Below are positions 4,735-60,368 of a stretch of DNA of 64,000 nucleotides, piece after piece. The number at the start of each line of letters is the position of its first letter. Within the stretch, counting starts at the first letter, position 1. This DNA is from the human T2T-CHM13v2.0 reference genome, Homo sapiens. The notes under the pieces were generated by a model, which had not been told where the DNA came from, did not search any database, and saw only the letters and a program-made list of their open reading frames with translations. A program made the translations under genes and the position numbers. The DNA lies in the NCBI RefSeq assembly GCF_009914755.1, contig NC_060945.1; one strand, written 5' to 3'.

Positions 4735-5101
4735 TTGCAACCTGCAACTTCCACCTCCTGGGTTCAAGTGATTCTCCTGTCTCAGCCTCCCAAGTAGCTA
4801 GGATTACAGGTGCTCACCACCATGCCCGGCCAATTTTTGTATTTTTAGTAGAGATGGGGTTTCACCATATTGGCCAGGCCGGTCTCAAACTCCTAACGTC
4901 GGGTGATCCATCCACCTCAGCCTCCCGAGTAGCTAGGATTACAGGTGCTCACCACCATGCCTGGCTAATTTTTGTATTTTTAGTAGAGATGGGGTTTCAC
5001 CATATTGGCCAGGCCGGTCTCAAACTCCTAACATCGGGTGATCCATCCACCTCAGCCTCCCAGAGTGCTGGGATTACAGGCGTGAGCCAACATGCCTGGC
5101 C
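4735..5101 (-). mobile_element. Alu with 135-bp internal tandem duplication and no poly(A) end
   Basis: ctcagcctccc recurs at 4781, 4916 and 5051 (period 135). The two copies share private variants (gctaggattacaggtgctcacc, ccatattggccaggccggtc). Confidence 0.95.
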
Positions 5102-5344
5102 ATGTCATTCTTTCTGTATAGAACAAATGCCTGCTGTTAGCCTACCCTCACTGTAGGCAGTGGACTGCCCTGGGCTTGTGGTCAGCCAGCCTAGTACTGG
5201 AGTTGTCCTGGGAAAGAAGCACAACTTCCTCTGGCCGCAACCTTCCCCTCTATAAAATGGACATAACTCCCAGGATGGTAGGGAGGGATTAAAAGCAACC
5301 TATGTGGAGCTCTTCCTGTGTATCAGGTTGTGGCAAGCTATTAA

Positions 5345-5688: not shown

Positions 5689-6125
5689 TGTAGACAGAAT
5701 AAGACCCCTAAAGATGTCCATGTCCAAAACCCCAGAACACATGAATATGCCCAAAAGGACTTCATGGATGTCATTAAGTTAAAGATTTTGAGATGGAAAG
5801 ATTGTACTGGATTGCCTGAGTGGGTTCAATGTAATCACAAGCATATTTCGAAGAAGGAGGCAAGAGAGGATCAGCATTGGAAAAAAGGGTGGGAGGAATG
5901 TGCTTTGAGGATGGAGGAAGGGGCCAAGAACCAAGGAATGCAGGTGGCCTCTAGAAAAGGAAGGAACAGATTCTCCCTAGGAGTCTCCAGAAGGAACACA
6001 GCCCTGCCAAAACTTTGATTTTTACCTTATTATAATAGACACATTTTGGACTTCTGAGCCCCAGAACTATAGCATAGTAAATTGTGTTGTTTGAAGCTAC
6101 TAGGTTCGTGGTAGCTTGGAAATTA
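5689..6125 (+). mobile_element. MLT1D-like ERVL-MaLR LTR
   Basis: cccctaaagatgtccatgtcc...gttaaagattttgagatgg...ccaaggaatgcaggtggcctctagaa...cagattctccctaggagtctccagaaggaacacagccctgcc. Confidence 0.85.
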
Positions 6126-10587: not shown

Positions 10588-11060
10588 TGTGTTAGTTTCT
10601 AGGGCTGCCATAACAAATTTCCACACTGGATAGTTTACACAACAAAAATTTATTGTCTTACAGTTTTGGAGGCTGGAAGTCTGAAACCAAGGTGTTGGCA
10701 GGGGTGGTTCCTTCTGGAGACAGAGGGAGAATCTGTTCCATGGCTCTCTTAGCTTCTGGTGGCTGCCAGCAGTCCTTGGCATTCCTTGGAGTGTAGACAC
10801 GGAACTCCAGTCTCTGCCTCCATCCTCACATCACCCTTTGTGTCTGTGTGAATCTTCTTCTTTTTTTTTTTTTTTTTGCCTCTTACAAGGACAGCAGTCA
10901 TTGGATTTAGGGCCTACCCTAAATCTAGGATGATCTCATCTTTTGATCTTTAACTTACATCTACAAAAATACTTTTTTTCAGATAAGGTCTCCTTCACGA
11001 GTTCCATGAGTTAGGGCTTGGGTACATCGTTTAGGGGGGTGATATTCAACCCACTGCACA
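10588..11060 (-). mobile_element. MLT1C LTR nested in an older MLT1 LTR (~10355-11235)
   Basis: tgtgttagtttctagggctgccataacaaat...cagttttggaggctggaagtctgaaaccaaggtgttggcaggg...gtcattggatttagggcctaccc...attcaacccac. Confidence 0.88.
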
Positions 11061-21065: not shown

Positions 21066-21472
21066 CCTAACTCTGCCTAAGGGTGTTCCTCTTCTGGGAT
21101 CTGTTTCTCAGAGTTAGGGTAATCAATTAGTCTCCATTTTGGCATTAAACCTCTTATGTTCTGGGAAACCCCTCAGTCCCTGGAAAACCGGGATAGTTTG
21201 TCCCCAAAAAGATATGTCTGCATCCTAATCTCCAGAATCTGTCGATGCGACCTTACTTGGGAAAAGGCAGAGACCCCAGACCCTGTCTCTGCATATGTAA
21301 TGAAGTTAGGAATCTTGAGATGAGATTATCCTGGGTTATCTGGGTAGGCCCTAAATCCAATGGCAAGCGTCCTTATAAGAACAACACAGAGGAAGATTAC
21401 ACAGACAGAAGAGAAGGTGACCATGTGACCACAGAGGCATGGAGTGCAGAGAGACAGTCCCAAGCCAAGGAA

Positions 21473-22444
<972 letters not shown>

Positions 22445-23561
22445 GGAATGCAGATGGCCACCAGAGGCTGGAAGAGACAAGGTATCCATTCTCCCCTAGA
22501 TCCTTTGGAGAGAGCATAGTCTTGCTGATATCTTAATTTTGGATTTCTTCTGCAGAACTGTGAGAGAATGCTTGTCTGTTATTTTAAGCCACCGGGTTTG
22601 TGGTAATCTGTGACAGCAGCTCTAGGTAACTAATACCATCCCTTTAACTCACCACTACTATTCTAGAGGGATATTGGGGGCAGTTTCCACCTCTCCTGCC
22701 TATCAAAAGTGAGATGTTCTGAAATCACGTAACCTTCACAAAGACCAGCTGATTGACTAATGAGTCTATAAAAACACTTCCCAGAAAGAACAGTCTAGAA
22801 ACCAATGAAGCACAGCTAATCTGACCTATTACAAGTACGGAAGACTATCTACGGTAGGTCATTAAGCAGCCAATGATGTAAATAAAACCTCTGCTAATGT
22901 TAAATGTGCCACTTTGTTTTGCAGGATGCAGCAGGCCGACAGTCATAGGCGGCCTGTTGGAAGCGCTCTGCAGCAGCTGTGCTCAGGGTGCAGCGAGACC
23001 TGGTGGAGAGAGCTGGTGGCTTCGTTGAGGAGGGATGGCAATGTTAGAGCCCAGTGTGGATGGCCTTTCCGTGTTCTGTGAAGGCGCTGGCAACTCCACA
23101 GAGCTGGAAAGGCTGGGCCATGAACAGGGCTCACCCTGTCAACTCCAAGTCACCTCCAGGACCTGTGGCTAAAATGATTGGAAGAGGAAGGGCCAGAAAC
23201 ACATGGAAAGCTCTAGAAGTGTCAGATTGGCCTCGTACAGCCCTTGGGCTAGCTCCACTCTGGAAAACCAGGTATGAATGTATTTGGGGCCCCGGACTGG
23301 GGTGCTCTCTTTTCCCCATTTCTTCTGGCTGTTTAGCTGCTGCCTCTGAGGGGTTTCTGGCTCCTATACCTTTGCTGAAGTTTGAGTCATGATTTTCTCT
23401 TGATGCTCGTCTTTTGGACTGTTTGCTGACGTCCCACTGTGTGAACAGTCTTCTTCAGGTTGCCCGTACTTAGTGTCCAGCGTATGCTGTGATGTATTGT
23501 ACTTAAAGAAAGCTCCTCCGTTGTCTGATAAGAATATATTTCTGCATACAGAGATTACAAA

Positions 23562-39870: not shown

Positions 39871-42017
39871 TTATGCTGAGTCAAATGACTGTGCACTAAA
39901 CCTAACTTCAGCACATGGGGACAATTCCAGTGGTTTAATGAGGAATTACGTGTCTAAAATGCCCAGAGTAGAGCTGAAAGAGTCTAGTTTCAAGTCTTGC
40001 ATCAGCAACAAATTAAGTAAATAAATATCTCCAAGTCTCGTTGTTTTCTTTGTAGAATGGGAGAAAGCAATGTCTATTTCCTAGGTTTGCTGTGAAGATT
40101 AAAGAGTACATAGGAAAAAAAATGATTGCTGTTATACGAGGAGGAAACTGAAATAGATTTTCCTTGCCATGATCAAAGATGGCAGCTTTTTACCAATTGT
40201 GTCCCAAAGTGATTCAGGGAGAGGGTCCTCCCCAAATCACCATCATCAATTAGCCACTGAATTTTCGTGTGTGTGTATGCAGTTTATCCAGGATGACTTC
40301 ATTTAAAAGACATCCAGCATGCCTGCTTTTAAAAGATAAATCATGGAAACTCTGACCTTTGTGTTCTAAAGCAGCTTTTATCTGGTACAAACAAAATATT
40401 TGAAATGCTGAGAAAGCCTTTTAAGTGGAGACCTTTGCTGCAGACTGGCACAATCAGGGCTGACGACTTTGTTAATTGATGTTGCAGCAAGCTCCTCTGA
40501 AAAAATCAAGTTCAAAGTTAGTTTGTCAAACAAATTTTCATTTAAAGAGTTGAAAGCTGTGATTTCTTCCTTTCTAACAATAACAGAGGGATTTTCATTT
40601 TTTTTTGTTAGCAAAGTATTTGCCCCATCTTTTAATATCTCTACCACCCCCAGCATCTCTGAGGCTTTGACATGGAAGTTAATTCTCTATAGGTCAAGGC
40701 CTTTGCCCTGAGTGACAGATTAGCTTCAGGAAGCACAAAGGCTTACAAAGAGTTCCCAGAGATGCAGAAGGATAACGTTGGGTCCTACGTTGCCGGCCAG
40801 GGAAAATCCATTTTGCTACTGAGTCTTGATGCTGGAGTCTGTGTGCTGAGTCGTCACAGAAGTCGAGGGTAAATGCAAGAGAACACTTGCCCTTTGGTCT
40901 TGCTAAGGCAAACAGAAGAATCATTGAGAAGGTGTGAGCCTGCAGGTGTTTCATTGGACTCTAAGTAGACCTCACCTGCCTGGAAGCCTTTCATGTTGCA
41001 GACGCCCATCCAGTTCCCCAATTTCCTGGACATCACAGCTTCTCAGCAGCCGTGTCTATGAGCTTATTTCCAAGCATCTCTTTGGATGGGAGGTTTTCTG
41101 TTCCTTTCAGTCACCAATATCTGTGCAAACATTCAGTTTGTTTTTGTTTAGTGTGTCCATTTTTATCCAATAGTATGTTTGGCTCTGTAGGGCTTCTAGA
41201 ATGTTCCATGTGGTGATGGGTCTGTTACCCACCTCTGATTTCCCGGACTCCTGATTTGTCTTAAATATATCAGGCATACGTGAGTGCAGGTGGCCTGAGG
41301 TTTCCCGTGCAATCCCATGTCTGGCAAAGGTATGGACTATGGAATGTCCCCTGTTAATGGCCACCACTAGCCTGGAGCCATTCCAGACACATGTATCACC
41401 TCTCCCAGGAAGGTCAGCTTCTCCTCCGCCCTGCATCTGTCTCCCCTGGGGTGGCCTACAGAGGCAGGTAGAGGAAACCGCTCTTGGTGCTTGGCCCCGC
41501 CACCCAAAGTTCTGACCCACGAGTCCTTCCCTGCGGTCCTGCTGCTGCTCAAAGCACGCCCAGTCAACTTCAGACGGAAGGAAATCAGACTTCGGACTGC
41601 AGCCCAGCATATTTTTGGCTCAAGCTAGCTAAGAACCATGAAATGCTGATTTTTACAGTTTTTACTTTTTGCCAGAAGCATGTAACTGCCTCTTTAAATT
41701 ATTTCAGCTAACTTCTGTTGATGATCTGTGGATAAACAAAAGTGTCTGCTGAACTGAATTTGTGGGGTGCTTTCACAGAAAACAGGCATACTGTAAGTAG
41801 GAAATCTGCATTCTGGAACATCTAATTAGGTAAACCTAACGGCGGCCTCCATAAATATCTCCCAGGGAGCTTGCATCTGTGCTCAGTGCATCAGTTGCAT
41901 ATTAAAGAGTCATAGCTTGTGTGAGTCGCTAAAACTACGTAACAATCATCAAGGCATGTTTGGCTCTTGGGGAAAATGGAAAGCATAGTTTTGGTTTTAA
42001 AATAATTTGTTTTATTA

Positions 42018-42020
<3 letters not shown>

Positions 42021-42063
<43 letters not shown>
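42021..42063. repeat. (GT)n microsatellite, ~21 units
   Basis: Perfect GT run. Confidence 0.98.
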
Positions 42064-42065
<2 letters not shown>

Positions 42066-42393
42066 ATACGAAAATGTCCAGTAGGTGACCTTTGTTGATC
42101 TTTGTTGCTGCCTCTTCAGAGCCCTGACTTCCACCTTGGACTCATCTCCCTTGTAGGCAACTAAGTGAAATCTCATGACTATAGGTTCTTGATATTTTGC
42201 TCACTACCAGGTTTAGAAAATTAATAACCACCAAATTTCTCAACAGCTTAGGATGCCACCTTTTAATATGCAACTTCTAAAAACTGAAAACTGTTCACAA
42301 TTTGCAAAAATCTGTGTCAAATGATGGCATGTGGGCTTCCTAGAGAGTTGATTGGAAGGTGGTGGTGGTCAGGGGTGTCTTCTCCACCACCCA

Positions 42394-45300
42394 CGTGTGA
42401 GTTTCCTGGGGCTGTCGTCACAAATTTCCACAAACCAGGGACGTAAAACAACACACATTTATTTTCACAATTCTGGAGGCCAGAAGTTCAAAATCAAGTT
42501 TTTGGCAGGGACGCATGCCCTCTGAAGGCTCCAGAGCAGGAGGCGTGTCAGGCTTCTGGTGTGGCTGGTGGCCTTCACACTCCTTGGGTTGTGGACACAT
42601 CTTTCCATTGTTGGCCTCCTTTTCCTATTGCCTTCTCCTCTATGCCTGTGTCTGAAATTGCCCTCCACCCTTCTCTTATAGGTGTTGGCCTCCTTTTCCT
42701 ATTGCTTTCTCCTCAATGCCTGTGTCTGAAATTGCCCTCCACCCTTCTCTTATAGGTGTTGGCCTCCTTTTCCTATTGCCTTCTCCTCTATGCCTGTGTC
42801 TGAAATTGCCCTCCACCCTTCTCTTATAGGTGTTGGCCTCCTTTTCCTATTGCCTTCTCCTCTATGCCTGTGTCTGAAATTGCCCTCCACCCTTCTCTTA
42901 TAGGTGTTGGCCTCCTTTTCCTATTGCTTTCTCCTCAATGCCTGTGTCTGAAATTGCCCTCCACCCTTCTCTTATAGGTGTTGGCCTCCTTTTCCTATTG
43001 CCTTCTCCTCTATGCCTGTGTCTGAAATTGCCCTCCACCCTTCTCTTATAGGTGTTGGCCTCCTTTTCCTATTGCTTTCTCCTCAATGCCTGTGTCTGAA
43101 ATTGCCCTCCACCCTTCTCTTATAGGTGTTGGCCTCCTTTTCCTATTGCCTTCTCCTCAATGCCTGTGTCTGAAATTGCCCTCCACCCTTCTCTTATAGG
43201 TGTTGGCCTCCTTTTCCTATTGCCTTCTCCTCAATGCCTGTGTCTGAAATTGCCCTCCACCCTTCTCTTATAGGTGTTGGCCTCCTTTTCCTATTGCTTT
43301 CTCCTCAATGCCTGTGTCTGAAATTGCCCTCCACCCTTCTCTTATAGGTGTTGGCCTCCTTTTCCTATTGCCTTCTCCTCTATGCCTGTGTCTGAAATTG
43401 CCCTCCACCCTTCTCTTATAGGTGTTGGCCTCCTTTTCCTATTGCCTTCTCCTCTATGCCTGTGTCTGAAATTGCCCTCCACCCTTCTCTTATAGGTGTT
43501 GGCCTCCTTTTCCTATTGCCTTCTCCTCTATGCCTGTGTCTGAAATTGCCCTCCACCCTTCTCTTATAGGTGTTGGCCTCCTTTTCCTATTGCCTTCTCC
43601 TCAATGCCTGTGTCTGAAATTGCCCTCCACCCTTCTCTTATAGGTGTTGGCCTCCTTTTCCTATTGCCTTCTCCTCAATGCCTGTGTCTGAAATTGCCCT
43701 CCACCCTTCTCTTATAGGTGTTGGCCTCCTTTTCCTATTGCCTGCTCCTCTATGCCTGTGTCTGAAATTGCCCTCCACCCTTCTCTTATAGGTGTTGGCC
43801 TCCTTTTCCTATTGCCTTCTCCTCTATGCCTGTGTCTGAAATTGCCCTCCACCCTTCTCTTATAGGTGTTGGCCTCCTTTTCCTATTGCCTTCTCCTCTA
43901 TGCCTGTGTCTGAAATTGCCCTCCACCCTTCTCTTATAGGTGTTGGCCTCCTTTTCCTATTGCTTTCTCCTCAATGCCTGTGTCTGAAATTGCCCTCCAC
44001 CCTTCTCTTATAGGTGTTGGCCTCCTTTTCCTATTGCCTTCTCCTCTATGCCTGTGTCTGAAATTGCCCTCCACCCTTCTCTTATAGGTGTTGGCCTCCT
44101 TTTCCTATTGCCTTCTCCTCAATGCCTGTGTCTGAAATTGCCCTCCACCCTTCTCTTATAGGTGTTGGCCTCCTTTTCCTATTGCCTTCTCCTCTATGCC
44201 TGTGTCTGAAATTGCCCTCCACCCTTCTCTTATAGGTGTTGGCCTCCTTTTCCTATTGCCTTCTCCTCTATGCCTGTGTCTGAAATTGCCCTCCACCCTT
44301 CTCTTATAGGTGTTGGCCTCCTTTTCCTATTGCCTTCTCCTCTATGCCTGTGTCTGAAATTGCCCTCCACCCTTCTCTTATAGGTGTTGGCCTCCTTTTC
44401 CTATTGCCTTCTCCTCTATGCCTGTGTCTGAAATTGCCCTCCACCCTTCTCTTATAGGTGTTGGCCTCCTTTTCCTATTGCCTGCTCCTCTATGCCTGTG
44501 TCTGAAATTGCCCTCCACCCTTCTCTTATAGGTGTTGGCCTCCTTTTCCTATTGCCTTCTCCTCTATGCCTGTGTCTGAAATTGCCCTCCACCCTTCTCT
44601 TATAGGTGTTGGCCTCCTTTTCCTATTGCCTTCTCCTCTATGCCTGTGTCTGAAATTGCCCTCCACCCTTCTCTTATAGGTGTTGGCCTCCTTTTCCTAT
44701 TGCTTTCTCCTCAATGCCTGTGTCTGAAATTGCCCTCCACCCTTCTCTTATAGGTGTTGGCCTCCTTTTCCTATTGCCTTCTCCTCTATGCCTGTGTCTG
44801 AAATTGCCCTCCACCCTTCTCTTATAGGTGTTGGCCTCCTTTTCCTATTGCCTTCTCCTCAATGCCTGTGTCTGAAATTGCCCTCCACCCTTCTCTTATA
44901 GGTGTTGGCCTCCTTTTCCTATTGCCTTCTCCTCTATGCCTGTGTCTGAAATTGCCCTCCACCCTTCTCTTATAGGTGTTGGCCTCCTTTTCCTATTGCC
45001 TTCTCCTCTATGCCTGTGTCTGAAATTGCCCTCCACCCTTCTCTTATAGGTGTTGGCCTCCTTTTCCTATTGCCTTCTCCTCTATGCCTGTGTCTGAAAT
45101 TGCCCTCCACCCTTCTCTTATAGGTGTTGGCCTCCTTTTCCTATTGCCTGCTCCTCAATGCCTGTGTCTGAAATTGCCCTCCACCCTTCTCTTATAGGTG
45201 TTGGCCTCCTTTTCCTATTGCCTGCTCCTCAATGCCTGTGTCTGAAATTGCCCTCCACCCTTCTCTTATAGGTGTTGGCCTCCTTTTCCTATTGCCTTCT

Positions 45301-46473
45301 CCTCAATGCCTGTGTCTAAAATTGCCCTCCACCCTTCTCTTATAGGTGTTGGCCTCCTTTTCCTATTGCCTTCTCCTCTATGCCTGTGTCTAAAATTGCC
45401 CTCCACCCTTCTCTTATAGGTGTTGGCCTCCTTTTCCTATTGCCTGCTCCTCAATGCCTGTGTCTGAAATTGCCCTCCACCCTTCTCTTATAGGTGTTGG
45501 CCTCCTTTTCCTATTGCCTTCTCCTCTATGCCTGTGTCTGAAATTGCCCTCCACCCTTCTCTTATAGGTGTTGGCCTCCTTTTCCTATTGCCTGCTCCTC
45601 AATGCCTGTGTCTGAAATTGCCCTCCACCCTTCTCTTATAGGTGTTGGCCTCCTTTTCCTATTGCCTGCTCCTCAATGCCTGTGTCTGAAATTGCCCTCC
45701 ACCCTTCTCTTATAGGTGTTGGCCTCCTTTTCCTATTGCCTGCTCCTCAATGCCTGTGTCTGAAATTGCCCTCCACCCTTCTCTTATAGGTGTTGGCCTC
45801 CTTTTCCTATTGCCTGCTCCTCAATGCCTGTGTCTGAAATTGCCCTCCACCCTTCTCTTATAGGTGTTGGCCTCCTTTTCCTATTGCCTGCTCCTCAATG
45901 CCTGTGTCTGAAATTGCCCTCCACCCTTCTCTTATAGGTGTTGGCCTCCTTTTCCTATTGCCTTCTCCTCAATGCCTGTGTCTAAAATTGCCCTCCACCC
46001 TTCTCTTATAGGTGTTGGCCTCCTTTTCCTATTGCCTTCTCCTCTATGCCTGTGTCTAAAATTGCCCTCCACCCTTCTCTTATAGGTGTTGGCCTCCTTT
46101 TCCTATTGCCTGCTCCTCTATGCCTGTGTCTGAAATTGCCCTCCACCCTTCTCTTATAGGTGTTGGCCTCCTTTTCCTATTGCCTTCTCCTCTATGCCTG
46201 TGTCTGAAATTGCCCTCCACCCTTCTCTTATAGGTGTTGGCCTCCTTTTCCTATTGCCTGCTCCTCAATGCCTGTGTCTGAAATTGCCCTCCACCCTCCT
46301 CTTATAGGGAAACGTATCACTGGATCTAGAGCCCACTTGGATAGTCCAGGATGACATTATCTCAAGATGTTTATCTTCATCACACCTGCAAAGACCCTTT
46401 CTCCAAATAAGGTCACACTCACAGGTCTCAAGTGGACATCTCTTGGGGGCTGCTCCCATCAAACCACAATACA
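42394..46473 (-). mobile_element. MLT1C/D LTR hosting the 74-bp minisatellite
   Basis: Left part: agtttcctggggctg...cacaattctggaggccagaagttcaaaatcaag...ctctgaaggctc. Right part: cactggatctagagcccac...ctgcaaagaccctttctccaaataaggtcacac. The LTR is colinear once 49 units are removed. Confidence 0.88.
42608..46307. repeat. Minisatellite (probable VNTR): 50 x 74 bp
   Basis: Unit gtgttggcctccttttcctattgccttctcctctatgcctgtgtctgaaattgccctccacccttctcttatag. 3700 bp = 50 x 74 with no indels and four recurrent variable positions. Confidence 0.99.
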
Positions 46474-47639
46474 CAACACAGAAAGGCCACTAAGTGTTGT
46501 AACTCAATTTTTGGGAGATATTTGTTAGAAAACCAAAGCCTTTGACAGCAGGAGTTTCACTCTGCATTGACCTGACCCATTTTCTTTCCCCCAAGATAAT
46601 GCTTTAAAGTTCCCTGCATGGTGGCTAGAGGGGGGCGCTCCCCATAGCTCTGAAATTCTCTGATTTTGCACATAAAAATTGGAATTTGAGGGTAAATCGT
46701 TGAATTAGGCAGTACTACTCAGGCACTTTTTCACTTAAGGAATGTTATAAGTAAAAATCCAAAAGAATTCCTCCAAAATAATGGCATTTGTGCTCTCTAA
46801 AGAGTTGATGGGGAAGATCTTTGTGGTCAGAAATGACTTCTCCCCATTCCTCAAACCACAGTGCGTGGACTCCCACTGCAGACTCATGGTGGCCCTGCCG
46901 TGGATTCAGGGCAGGAGTGCCCCTTCCTGGAGGAGCTGTCAGAGCGGACTGTGCTCACAAAAACACACTCCCCTGCTGAGGGGTCAGCAGTGAAGTGATG
47001 GGGAGGCCTGGGGCAGGGAGAGGGCAGCAGTGACTACAGGGCGAGATGGTATTGGGATAAATAGAAGAGGAAGAACCCCAGTATGGCGGAACAGAGGGAA
47101 TGGGCCCAACCAAGGTGGGGAATGGGCCCTCGCAAGGGCGAAAATAGAAGCTAAGATATAGATGGAGGCTCTGGAACAAAACACAGGGAAGAAGGCAAAC
47201 TTGCCCTTGTCAGTACTGCCGTTCAGAATTTTTCTATTAGTTGAAGTCAGTAAAGATGGTGGTCCAACTGGAAGTCATACTAGACTTCTGTGGTTCTATA
47301 ATTCTAACTAGGAATCTTCAATTAGAACCTGGACTTGGCAGAGGGAAGAGCCTGCAAAGATCCAGCACAATCTGAAATCAAGGCTCCTATTTATTTGTTT
47401 TCCTGTTTACTACCCCACCCCCTTATCAGAATGGAAGCTCCCTGTGGTCAGGGTACTTGCCTGTTACGTTCGTTGTTGGATCCCAGGTCCTATTCCCAAT
47501 GTTTGACATAGCAGGTGCTCAATAAATACATGATGTGAAGGAATGAATAGTGAGCACGAGGCTTCATTTATGCGTATTTTGTTCAAATTTAACTCTGAAT
47601 TTTTTGACTTTCACTCCCTGGTCTGGTCCTTCCCAGAGC

Positions 47640-54939: not shown

Positions 54940-55093
54940 GCCTGCCTCCCTCCCTCCCTTCCTTCCTTCTTTCCTTCCTTCCTTCCTTCCCCCTTCTGCA
55001 CCACATCCTCCCCATCTCTTAACACTAACATTCCCTCCCTCCCTCCCTCCCTCCCTCCCTCCCTCCCTCCCTTCCTTCCTTCCTTCCTTCCCC
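54940..55093. repeat. (CCCT)n/(CCTT)n pyrimidine tracts
   Basis: Two runs of ccct/cctt. cttctgcaccacatcctc occurs twice, once before each run. Confidence 0.9.
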
Positions 55094-55927
55094 ATTGTCC
55101 TCTGAAGCTGAGGCTGAAAGGGAGTAGGAGAAACTAGTATGTATTGGGCCACTGCTCTCTGCCCAGCAGTGGTACCCATGAAAATATCTCAAATCGGAGA
55201 ATGGGATTTTCCAGAATCTCTGTGGTTTCATCTAATTTTGTTATTTTCAATAAATTTAATTTGTTGAACTTACATAACTAAATGTTACTTTTTGTACACT
55301 TGTAAAACTTCTCATAAATAAATCCATAAACCCTAAAAATACTCTTATTTCTAAATGTGTACCATGGTTTTGGTTTGGGAAATACAGTTTTATGCAAAGG
55401 GATAAATTTAAATTGAACAGCTGGAGAAACAAGCTTGAAAAAAAATTCAGCCTCCAAATAAGACAGAAGGATTTGATGGTGAAATGTACTTCAACGAAAT
55501 TTAAAATAATTGCCTATGGGCTTTCGTTGTGGTGGTTTGTGTTCTTAAGACATTACCCAGCTGGAGTTAAAATGCCGGTGGTCCAGCGCTGTTTGCAGCT
55601 CTCTGGTGTGGGGGCTTCTTCTTCAGTTTGCTGACCCCTTCCCATCGGCCTGTGGACTGCGTGAGGCCGTCCAAATTCCCCCTTGAGTCTCCCCACTTCC
55701 CGCGGAATGTCTTCAGGGTTCATGATCTTGGACAAACATGTGCTGGAGATTTCCAACTTCATGTCTCTGGCTTTGACTAGTCTCTGGAAATCCAGCCACA
55801 TTTCCGAATATCTGCAGGACGCCTCTATGGAGATTGGAACGATTTAGCCTGGATCCATGAGCATTTAACAAAATCCGCCACGGCTGCTGGGAGCCGATAG
55901 TTCCGGGGAAGTTTTATGCAAAATTGA

Positions 55928-55955: not shown

Positions 55956-56695
55956 CCGTGTCCGTGTGGTGTGCATACCTATGGATGTGGGGGTGTGGGG
56001 AGGGTGTGTTTGCACAGTGCATTTTTCTGGGAAGAAAGTACATAGATTTTTTTCAGATTTTCAAAGTGTACTTTGGTGCTTCTCTTCCCCCACAGTAGCT
56101 AATGTTCTAGGAATGCTTATCTTGCGCCAGGCATCATACCAAGTGCTTTATTGGTATTGTATATTTAATAATTTCAGTCATCTTTTGAGGTATGATCTGT
56201 TCATATTTGTCATTTTGGAAATACGAAGCATAGTGAGATTGGTAAACTCCAAGGTCATAGCTAATAGACATTGGAGGGAAGGTTCAAATCCTGCCCTTGC
56301 CCCAAGGCAAGATCCTGGCTCCTAATTCAAGTTCTCCACCAGCATTGCATCACTGGGACCTACCTGTCTCCCCTACTTGGTCATGGATTTTGGTGTTTCT
56401 TTTTAAAACTCTGTCTCCCAGACATTCTCACAGCCTCTCCTCTAGTTCAACCCCCAAATATGATGTTAGTTGGCCTATGGAGGCTGACCCATCTCCAGAA
56501 TGGATTATTGTCACACTGGCCTTCCCGCCCCTTCCCTTCTTCCTCCATCCCTGCATCATCTGGGGCCCACAGGGTCTCTAAAGCATCCATGGGCTCCCAA
56601 TCTACAGTCCAGTCTGTCAGCAGGAGGTCATGTTACTCCACGGTCAGGGTCACTCTGACCTTTCCAGACACGGTTCTGAAGGGCTCTTCAGGAGA

Positions 56696-56714
56696 CACCA
56701 CACATACGCACCAA

Positions 56715-56754
<40 letters not shown>

Positions 56755-57424
56755 CAAATACATCAGACACCCCCACACTACACACACACACACTCACTCA
56801 CATACAACACAAACACGCCGAACACACGCACGCCACCTCTCCACACTACACACAAATATACACACACTCACCACCCACGCAAATGTACATACACCACCAC
56901 ATCACACACACCACACACACCCACCAAACACATCAGACACCCCACATTACACACACACACTCACATACAACACAAATACACACACACCTGACACTTTCCA
57001 CACTACACACACATGCACAATCACCACCCACACAAAACACATCACACACACCACACAAACACGCACACCATACACTGTGCACACACACTCACATACCACA
57101 CAACACACCAAACCCATAGACACCAGACACCCCTCACACTACACACACACACTCACATATAACACAAACACACACCAAACACACACTCCCAGACACTCCC
57201 CCAACACCACACACACTGTGCACACACATACACTCATACCACACACCACACATACCAAACACACCCAAACACCAGACACCCCACACATATGCACACCACA
57301 CACAAATAGCACACCACACACTACACATACACTTCCACACACCACAGCCCCCTACCTTCCCACACACCCTGCTCCCCTACACCATACCCCACATCCTACC
57401 TCCCACATCCCACACCACATCCCA

Positions 57425-57468
<44 letters not shown>
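56696..57468. repeat. CA-rich low-complexity tract with degenerate higher-order repeats
   Basis: Bounded by pure (CA)n runs. The motif ca(t/c)cagacacccc...acta/ttacacacacac...tcacata(c/t)aacacaaa recurs at ~56761, ~56931 and ~57121. Confidence 0.95.
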
Positions 57469-57711: not shown

Positions 57712-57931
57712 AATTGTCTTCCCTGAATGAGTATAATTGTTCCCAAATTTCTCCTTTTTGTAAGGACACCACTCATATTGGATTAAAGTTCACCCTAAGC
57801 ACCTCACTTGAGCTTGATTACCTCTGTCAAGACTGTATCTCAAAATAAGGTCACATTCTGAGGTACTGGGAGTTAGGAAGCCAACATACCTTTTCTGGGT
57901 AGCAGGGGATGTAATTTTACCCATCACAACA
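57712..57931 (-). mobile_element. MLT1B-like LTR, 5' half
   Basis: taaggacaccactcatattggatta...aaataaggtcacattctgaggtactgggagttagg. Confidence 0.8.
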
Positions 57932-59519: not shown

Positions 59520-60368
59520 TTCCATATCACACACTGGGTAGCTTAAAATGGTAGCGCTTTATTCTCTCACAGTTCTGGAAGGTAGAAGTCAGAAGTCAAG
59601 GTATCAGTTAGAGACATGCTTCATATTCACTTACCCACAAACTAGTGGATGACACATTTTGGCCATTTGGAAGATCTTTATTATAGGAGTATGTAGATTT
59701 TCCATAGAGTGCTGTTGTGTGATTTGAATTTTAGTTGTGGCCCTGCCTCTGACTTTGTCAGTGATTTATCCTGGTTCCAGGAAATAAGAATAGCCTTTTT
59801 CTCATGATAGTCTTTGGTAGTTTTTAAAACATTTGTTTAACTCAACAGATGCACCATGTGCCTGACACTGCTCTACACCAGTGAAGAATTTACACTGTAA
59901 TGGGGGGAGGTAACTATAAAGATGATAAACATAACATCTTAATTGGAGTGAGTATGAAGATGGTTGTTATCTTTTCCTAAAAGAAACAACAACAACAAAA
60001 CAAAAAAGGAAGTCAAGGTATCAAGAGGGAGATGCTACCTCTGAGACACTGGAGAGAATCCTTCATTGCCTCCTCCTCGCTTCTGGTGGTGGCCGTTAAT
60101 TCGTGGTGTTTCCTGGTTTGCAGCTGTGTCACTCTCATCTTGGTCTCCGTCTTCACATAATGTACTCCTTGTGTGTGTCTATGTGCTCAATTTTCCCTTT
60201 TCTTATAAAGACACCAGTCATTGGACTTAGGACCCACCCCAATCCAATATGACCGCATCTTAATTTGCTTACATCTGCAAACATTCTATTTTCAAATAAG
60301 GTCCCATTCACAGGTACAGGGGTTAAGGATGCCAACATATCTTTCTGGGGGACACAGTTCAACCCAGT
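59520..60368 (-). mobile_element. MLT1C LTR interrupted by a ~400-bp insertion
   Basis: tttattctctcacagttctggaaggtagaagtc before the insertion; after it ggagagaatccttc...gcttctggtggtggc...ttataaagacaccagtcattggacttagg...gggacacagttcaaccc. Confidence 0.88.
59607..60008 (+). pseudogene. Unidentified retroposed sequence with 15-bp TSD and A-rich tail
   Basis: gaagtcaaggtatca at 59592-59606 and 60009-60023. Tail aaaagaaacaacaacaacaaaacaaaaaa at 59979-60007. The body matches no repeat I recognise apart from a short L2-like stretch. Confidence 0.75.

What the first reader, a model, noticed from the sequence alone, without database searches (positions are those of the whole stretch)
42608..46307. 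3.7-kb, 50-copy minisatellite amplified from inside an ancient MaLR LTR
Seen: exactly 50 indel-free 74-bp units that differ at only four recurrent positions. They sit within an MLT1C/D LTR whose flanks are heavily diverged from consensus. The unit is 74% pyrimidine on + (55/74) and contains no CpG. Known: MLT1 elements are old eutherian MaLR LTRs. Inference: near-identical units in an old host indicate a recent, possibly lineage-specific and still length-polymorphic expansion, likely collapsed in short-read assemblies.
Basis: partly seen in the sequence, partly recalled or inferred. Interest (0 to 1): 0.72.

Follow-up and report, generated by a model that had tools for sequence, protein, structure and literature searches.

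The report
Minisatellite grown inside an ancient LTR
A 74-base piece of an ancient retrovirus-like LTR between PCP4 and DSCAM on human chromosome 21 has been copied head to tail 50 times; this is an ordinary, already described kind of tandem repeat that shows no sign of function.

Summary
Window 42609-46308 holds exactly 50 gap-free 74-bp units (TRF score 7078). Only 5 columns vary: 4 recurrently and 1 once.

The array lies inside a solo LTR of about 42396-46473. Both LTR arms match hundreds of dispersed copies at 70-86% identity. Both arms also match, in the same order, the LTR at MIR558, which two papers call MLT1C. Other copies carry one unit's worth of sequence between the arms and no array. 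The array occurs nowhere else in CHM13. So the amplification happened at this locus, not in the family.

The LTR is old. Its K2P distance to relatives has medians of 0.23-0.25, and print gives MLT1C and MLT1D a eutherian distribution. The units are young or kept alike: they differ by 0.017 per site, with repeated multi-unit blocks and mosaic variant combinations. That pattern points to unequal exchange and conversion.

I found no ORF, gene, functional annotation, hairpin, or exact PRDM9 or CTCF-like motif.

I could not test subfamily C versus D, length polymorphism, or presence in other primates.

TE-derived minisatellites are a described class (PMC3389668). Verdict: a genuine but ordinary feature of low interest.

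The parts
42396..42608 (+). 5' arm of a solo MLT1-type (MaLR) LTR, starting with TG
   Evidence: 15 of 18 permissive HSPs to fetched copies begin at 42395-42405. Identity to 20 dispersed copies is 71-82%. It matches the MIR558 LTR, named MLT1C in print, over 42400-42526 at 71%, E 1.7e-9. It has 4 CpG against 13.2 expected.
42609..46308 (+). Minisatellite: 50 head-to-tail units of 74 bp, derived from the middle of the LTR
   Evidence: TRF; unit table; found only at this locus in CHM13. Homology of other LTR copies runs into unit 1 in 1 of 20 copies and into unit 50 in 12 of 20.
43719..44384 (+). Units 16-24, the first copy of a 9-unit block of unit types
   Evidence: The same order of unit types appears in units 16-24 and 26-34. 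Only 4 of 2000 permutations reach a repeated run that long.
44459..45124 (+). Units 26-34, the second copy of the 9-unit block
45125..45420 (+). Units 35-38, the first copy of a 4-unit block that carries the only A variants at column 46
   Evidence: The same four unit types recur in units 44-47. Column 46 A is found in 4 of 50 units.
45791..46086 (+). Units 44-47, the second copy of the 4-unit block
46309..46473 (+). 3' arm of the same LTR, ending with CA
   Evidence: Identity to dispersed copies is 70-86%. It matches the MIR558 LTR over 46355-46426 at 76%, E 1.6e-9. Most HSPs stop at 46426; two reach 46471 and 46473, so the 3' end is good to about +/-25 bp.

Best explanation
An MLT1-type MaLR element inserted here tens of millions of years ago and survives as a solo LTR of about 452 bp when counted with one unit. 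Much later, a 74-bp stretch from its middle was duplicated in place. Unequal exchange or replication slippage then built it up to 50 copies. Multi-unit block duplication and gene conversion between units keep the copies alike.

What is shown: the anatomy, the uniqueness of the array, the LTR origin of the unit, the block and mosaic structure, and the lack of coding or annotated function.

What is inferred: the mechanism, the young common ancestor of the present units (very roughly 4-9 Myr or less), neutrality, and probable length polymorphism.
For: The array itself.

The arms are members of a dispersed family.

Name anchor: the LTR overlapping MIR558 is called MLT1C in PMC4330264 (passage) and in PMC10671384 Table 1 (passage). 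Both window arms match it in the same order.

The unit comes from the LTR, and the array is specific to this locus:
- 11 of 13 two-arm copies have the spacing expected for a single unit.
- TRF finds no array of period 20 or more in the 22 fetched loci.
- A three-unit query hits only chr21.

Ages:
- K2P of arm versus copy has medians 0.233 (15 of 19 HSPs were 80 bp or longer) and 0.247 (13 of 18).
- Units differ by 0.0174 per site, and there is one private change in 3,700 bp.

Turnover:
- A 9-unit block and a 4-unit block each occur twice.
- Types C and D occur only in units 1-34; types B, F, G and H occur only in units 35-50.
- All four allele combinations are present for columns 26x33 and 33x46.

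No sign of function:
- No ORF longer than 46 aa lies wholly inside the array.
- No RefSeq gene or functional element lies on it.
- Rfam finds nothing there.

The class is in print. PMC3389668 reports 7,276 TE-derived tandem repeats, 1,597 of them from ERVs (abstract and sections 3.1, 3.2, 3.4 read). PMC8327921 describes structured motif maps shaped by duplications and deletions in human VNTRs (passages).
Against: - Only one haplotype (CHM13) was seen, so polymorphism and the time of first expansion are unobserved.
- Concerted evolution could keep an old array homogeneous, so unit identity dates the last common ancestor of the units, not the array.
- The first 23 bases of the unit are tied to the LTR by one copy only (L034, 72% over 201 columns).
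- No short direct repeat or truncated end unit marks the founding duplication, so the initiating event is unexplained. Print says the same of about 94% of TE-derived repeats.
- The 20 copies were the best-scoring candidates, so the distances are lower bounds.
- The target-site duplication is not clear: the 5 bases on each side agree at 3 of 5 (read).
- Matches in closed regions of the reference are not shown.
Confidence: 0.88

Rival explanations
1. The array is old and shared with other primates, and concerted evolution merely keeps it homogeneous. It would then not be a recent or human-lineage expansion.
For: Block duplications and mosaic variant combinations show active homogenisation. That process can hide age. 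PMC8327921 reports that most of the human-specific VNTRs it studied were already expanded in ancient genomes and rarely change within a generation (passages).
Against: There is only one private substitution in 3,700 bp. Mean unit difference is 0.017 per site against 0.23-0.25 for the arms versus relatives. This bounds the age of the units, not of the array, so it does not exclude this reading.
Confidence: 0.3
2. The repeat belongs to the LTR family itself and was spread by transposition, as print describes for LTR12.
For: PMC3389668 describes this situation for LTR12 and L1PA.
Against: 11 of 13 two-arm copies have single-unit spacing. The other two carry about 310 extra bases, and TRF finds no array in them. 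The three-unit query found only this locus.
Confidence: 0.02
3. The array, or its copy number, is an assembly artefact.
For: No direct evidence. Reads were not available, so this was not tested.
Against: The unit map is irregular and position-specific, and both junctions with the single-copy flanks are clean. A 3.7-kb array is shorter than the long reads behind this assembly; that point is recalled, not tested.
Confidence: 0.03
4. The array is a working element, either a length-dependent regulatory site for PCP4 or DSCAM or a pyrimidine-rich RNA.
For: Every unit offers the same pyrimidine runs: 138 runs of 10 or more bases, and TCTT once per unit. Each unit junction reads AG then GT. The array lies 45 kb from the end of PCP4 and 36 kb from the 3' end of DSCAM.
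Against: No gene, transcript or functional element is annotated on it. There is no CTCF-like match in it: 0 of 9 window hits. It has no significant fold, no ORF, and no paper on the locus was found.
Confidence: 0.06

Closest known systems
TE-derived minisatellites (Ahmed and Liang 2012, PMC3389668)
   Same: A stretch inside a transposable-element copy is amplified in place. The array meets that paper's criteria: unit longer than 20 bp, GC at least 40%, identity at least 95%, and overlap with a TE by at least one period. As for most of their cases, it has neither flanking direct repeats nor a truncated end unit.
   Different: Most of their arrays have only two units; this one has 50. They also find that younger TEs start repeats more often, whereas this host is an old family.
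Human VNTRs with structured motif maps (Course et al. 2021, PMC8327921)
   Same: The size range matches: their units are 7-341 bp and copy numbers 2-300.5, with a mean of 39.8. So does the pattern of a few motif variants arranged in blocks shaped by duplications and deletions.
   Different: Their set excludes repeats associated with retrotransposons. Whether this locus is expanded only in humans is unknown.
Tandem repeats intrinsic to a repeat family (LTR12, L1PA, SVA)
   Same: A tandem repeat lies inside a retroelement sequence.
   Different: In those families the repeat is part of the family sequence and spreads by transposition. Here the array is confined to one copy.

Membership tests
MLT1 LTR (MaLR; ERVL-MaLR, placed under ERV3 in Repbase) | Sequence likeness over both halves of the LTR to a copy named MLT1 in print | tested here: met
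   The LTR at MIR558 is named MLT1C in PMC4330264 and PMC10671384. It matches 42400-42526 (71%, E 1.7e-9) and 46355-46426 (76%, E 1.6e-9), same strand and same order. The MLT1H2 locus at MIR3927 gave only a 21-base hit at E 0.002.
MLT1 LTR (MaLR; ERVL-MaLR, placed under ERV3 in Repbase) | Member of a very large dispersed family | tested here: met
   There were 1006 and 568 first-look candidates, with 40 scored each, on many chromosomes. Print gives 19,824 MLT1C and 20,741 MLT1D copies (PMC4419796 Table 1).
MLT1 LTR (MaLR; ERVL-MaLR, placed under ERV3 in Repbase) | LTR ends TG...CA and a length of a few hundred bases (the usual length is recalled) | tested here: met
   TG is at 42396-42397 and CA at 46472-46473. 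The length is 213 + 74 + 165 = 452 bp with one unit. The ends are placed by homology edges, and the 3' end is uncertain by about 25 bp.
MLT1 LTR (MaLR; ERVL-MaLR, placed under ERV3 in Repbase) | Short target-site duplication (5 bp, recalled) | tested here: inconclusive
   The 5 bases on each side agree at 3 of 5 (read).
MLT1 LTR (MaLR; ERVL-MaLR, placed under ERV3 in Repbase) | Subfamily C or D rather than another MLT1 subfamily | not testable with these tools
   No curated library of family models was on hand, and building a consensus is barred. Single named copies at 66-78% identity cannot separate subfamilies.
MLT1 LTR (MaLR; ERVL-MaLR, placed under ERV3 in Repbase) | Solo LTR rather than a full element with an inner part | tested here: met
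   The nearest other arm-like fragments in the window are at 21285-22631 (- strand) and at 57813 and beyond. None pairs with this LTR.
Minisatellite / TE-derived tandem repeat | Head-to-tail units longer than 20 bp, at least 95% alike, GC at least 40%, overlapping a TE by at least one period (criteria of PMC3389668) | tested here: met
   The array is 74 bp x 50 at 98% identity, with GC 48.7%. The overlap with the LTR is shown.
VNTR in the strict sense | Copy number varies between people | not testable with these tools
   Only CHM13 was readable. Supplementary tables of VNTR catalogues, which may list this locus, were closed.
Family-intrinsic LTR repeat (LTR12-like) | The repeat is present in many copies of the family | tested here: not met
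   None of the 22 fetched loci has an array of period 20 or more. Only the chr21 locus was hit.

The most novel reading that the evidence does not exclude
The array is a length-variable working element in the PCP4-DSCAM interval. If its + strand is transcribed, it would give about 3.7 kb of pyrimidine-rich RNA, with one TCTT and three pyrimidine runs of 10-12 bases in nearly every unit, and an AG-GT junction every 74 bases. Such an RNA could hold pyrimidine-tract-binding proteins or trap splicing. Alternatively, the array could act as a copy-number-dependent regulatory site for the neighbouring neuronal genes.
Probability: 0.04. Interest if true: 0.55.

Novelty: new member of a known kind. Interest (0 to 1): 0.2.

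Why it matters
This is a clean, fully resolved case of a long minisatellite born inside a very old LTR, and its unit map records block duplication and conversion. In practice it is a likely length-variable marker 45 kb from PCP4 and 36 kb from DSCAM, one that short reads would measure poorly. It teaches nothing new about the retroelement: only a solo LTR remains, with no viral gene.

Tried and rejected
- PRDM9 13-mer (motif recalled). There is no exact match in the array: 3 matches in the window, all elsewhere. With one mismatch every unit matches once, giving 50 of 153 window hits. But that is a single near-match copied 50 times, so it is only a weak lead.
- CTCF-like 15-mer (recalled): 0 of 9 hits fall in the array.
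- DNA hairpins that could favour slippage: z-scores 0.21 and -0.21.
- Rfam: the only hit is a sub-threshold SCARNA7 match on the GT repeat at 42000-42134.
- Coding potential: nothing longer than 46 aa lies wholly inside the array.
- Founding direct repeats or a truncated end unit: none at the junctions.
- Ancestral state of the variable columns, judged from dispersed copies. Too few copies cover columns 24, 26 and 33 (2 each). At column 46 the copies show mostly C (6 of 8), which is neither array allele. At column 64 they show T in 7 of 8, so the C in unit 50 is a private change.
- RefSeq soft-masking: neither the array nor the LTR is masked, so this gave no help.
- Papers on this locus: none found. 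Searches were 'MLT1 + minisatellite', 'VNTR + PCP4 + DSCAM' (0 papers), 'VNTR + ERVL-MaLR + long-read', and a five-term search including DSCAM. In the one paper the last search listed, DSCAM matched only DSCAML1. PMC3059204 holds no MLT1 entry.
- One search was a script error of mine (wrong column) and gave only useless output.
- Mutation and substitution rates used for dates are recalled, not taken from any call.
Full report
**1. The observation**

TRF reports a single array at 42609-46308: period 74, 50.0 copies, 98% matches, no indels, score 7078. Cut into 74-base slices, all 50 units are in register and 69 of 74 columns are invariant.

The variable columns are:
- column 24: C44/T6
- column 26: T38/G12
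- column 33: T27/A23
- column 46: G46/A4
- column 64: a single C, in unit 50

These give eight unit types. The array has no CpG, is 73.4% pyrimidine on the + strand, and has 48.7% GC. The 74-mers on either side are 32% and 26% identical to the edge units, so the copy number is a whole 50. Otherwise his description holds, apart from the unmentioned singleton.

**2. Setting**

No gene overlaps the window. PCP4 (+ strand) ends 45 kb to the left of the array, and the 3' end of DSCAM (- strand) lies 36 kb to the right. The only RefSeq functional element in the window is a silencer fragment at 55693-55893. Neither the array nor its host LTR is soft-masked. Both outer flanks, 42064-42395 and 46481-46980, are single-copy in CHM13. 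A three-unit query finds only this locus. Matches in closed regions of the reference would not be shown.

**3. Is the virus remnant real, and of what family?**

I searched with two unbroken window stretches: the sequence left of the array plus unit 1, and unit 50 plus the sequence right of the array. They gave 1006 and 568 first-look candidates (40 scored each) on many chromosomes, at 71-85% identity.

I fetched 20 of these copies. Thirteen carry both arms on one strand. With permissive scoring, 15 of 18 HSP starts fall at 42395-42405. Most HSP ends fall at 46426, and two reach 46471 and 46473. The element is therefore about 42396-46473. It begins with TG and ends with CA. Counted with one unit it is 452 bp.

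No partner LTR lies nearby. It is a solo LTR with no inner genes, so nothing needed translating.

For the name I used print:
- PMC4330264 (passage) states that miR-558 derives from MLT1C, with a simple repeat beside it.
- PMC10671384 Table 1 (passage) states that human miR-558 derives from MLT1C.
- The same table says miR-3927 derives from MLT1H2.

I fetched both loci by their RefSeq gene positions. The LTR that overlaps the 3' part of MIR558 matches the window's left arm (42400-42526, 71%, E 1.7e-9) and right arm (46355-46426, 76%, E 1.6e-9) in the same order. It also matches most of the 20 copies over 170-460 columns. The MLT1H2 locus gave only a 21-base hit at E 0.002.

So the remnant is an MLT1-type MaLR LTR. 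Repbase places MaLR under ERV3 (PMC5753468 Table 4, passage). Subfamily C or D could not be tested.

**4. How old is the LTR?**

K2P distances between the window's arms and the fetched copies have these medians:
- left arm: 0.233 (15 of 19 HSPs were 80 bp or longer; range 0.153-0.342)
- right arm: 0.247 (13 of 18; range 0.209-0.301)

Halved under a star-like history, this is about 0.12 per lineage. It is a lower bound, because these were the best-scoring candidates and local alignments favour conserved parts. With recalled neutral rates of about 1 to 2.2 x 10^-9 per site per year, this gives roughly 55-120 Myr. Print gives 'Eutherians' as the minimal distribution of both MLT1C and MLT1D (PMC4419796 Table 1, passage). 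CpG depletion in the arms fits an old age: 4 against 13.2 expected, and 1 against 8.1.

**5. The unit is LTR sequence and the array is local**

- Twelve of 20 copies align from inside unit 50, as far in as unit column 24.
- One copy (L034) aligns through unit 1 to column 41.
- In 11 of 13 two-arm copies the distance between the arm matches is within 50 bp of the window's distance counted with one unit.
- The other two carry about 310 extra bases. For L039 a second left-arm HSP gives near-equal spacing (120 against 118, my arithmetic).
- TRF finds no array of period 20 or more in any of the 22 fetched loci.

The repeat is therefore not a family trait.

**6. How the array behaves**

Mean pairwise difference between units is 0.0174 per site, about a fourteenth of the arm-to-relative distance. 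Only one substitution in 3,700 bp is private to a unit.

The order of unit types is not random:
- Units 16-24 and 26-34 have the same nine types in the same order. Only 4 of 2000 permutations reach a run that long.
- A four-type block that holds all four A variants at column 46 occurs at units 35-38 and again at 44-47.
- Types C and D occur only in units 1-34. Types B, F, G and H occur only in units 35-50.
- Columns 26x33 and 33x46 show all four allele combinations.

These are the marks of multi-unit duplication by unequal exchange or slippage, and of conversion or recombination between units. PMC8327921 describes the same pattern for human VNTRs (passages).

Scaling 0.0087 per lineage against at least 0.12 for the LTR puts the common ancestor of the present units within about 7% of the LTR's age. 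That is very roughly 4-9 Myr or less. This is inference. It dates the units, not the first duplication. An older array kept homogeneous is not excluded.

**7. Function**

Nothing points to one:
- No ORF longer than 46 aa lies wholly inside the array.
- Rfam has no match there.
- There is no significant DNA fold.
- There is no exact PRDM9 13-mer and no CTCF-like match.

Each unit carries one 12-of-13 near-match to the recalled PRDM9 motif. It is one sequence copied 50 times and counts as a lead only. The founding duplication left no flanking direct repeat and no truncated unit. Print says the same of about 94% of TE-derived repeats.

**8. Comparison and verdict**

TE-derived minisatellites are a described class. 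PMC3389668 reports 7,276 of them, 23% of all minisatellites and satellites, with 1,597 from ERVs and most having only two units (abstract and sections read). This array meets their criteria and stands out only by its 50 units and its old host.

I found no paper on this locus. The supplementary catalogues that might list it were closed.

It is a genuine, well-resolved, ordinary feature: a new member of a known kind. Polymorphism, lineage specificity and the LTR subfamily remain open for want of other assemblies and a curated repeat library.

Noticed in passing
window 42021-42063: A perfect (GT)21.5 microsatellite lies 330 bp upstream of the LTR. It drew a sub-threshold Rfam SCARNA7 hit (26 bits against a gathering score of 65), which I take for chance.
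   Followed up: partly
window 42682/42683 and every later unit junction: Each unit ends in a 12-base pyrimidine run followed by ATAG, and the next unit begins with GT. A splice-acceptor-like and donor-like pair therefore recurs every 74 bases on the + strand. No transcript is annotated here.
   Followed up: no
window 55032-55088 and 55693-55893: A (TCCC)14 tract lies 600 bp before the only RefSeq functional element in the window, an MPRA silencer fragment.
   Followed up: no
window 56695-57468: A long degenerate AC-rich tract (period 2, 63% matches) contains a 35-bp sub-repeat at 57204-57321.
   Followed up: no
window 10589-10703 (+), 21285-21362 and 22532-22631 (-), 1686-1740, 5980-6092, 57813-57864, 60271-60315: Other fragments resemble the arms of this LTR at 73-80% identity. 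They are further old copies of related LTRs in the same window.
   Followed up: partly
window 4781-5102: A 135-bp unit is repeated 2.4 times at 93% identity. This is a second, much smaller tandem duplication, possibly inside a dispersed repeat.
   Followed up: no
L045 933-1060 (chr2, MIR558): The MIR558 gene spans a dinucleotide repeat (933-985) and the first 42 bases or so of an MLT1C LTR. This agrees with the remark in PMC4330264 that two repeat families meet at that locus.
   Followed up: partly
L027, L039: These two dispersed copies show about 310 extra bases between the arm matches. In L027 this is probably a later insertion. In L039 a second left-arm HSP gives near-equal spacing.
   Followed up: no
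window 42396-46473: RefSeq's soft-masking (stretches of 100 bases or more) covers neither the 3.7-kb array nor the LTR.
   Followed up: no
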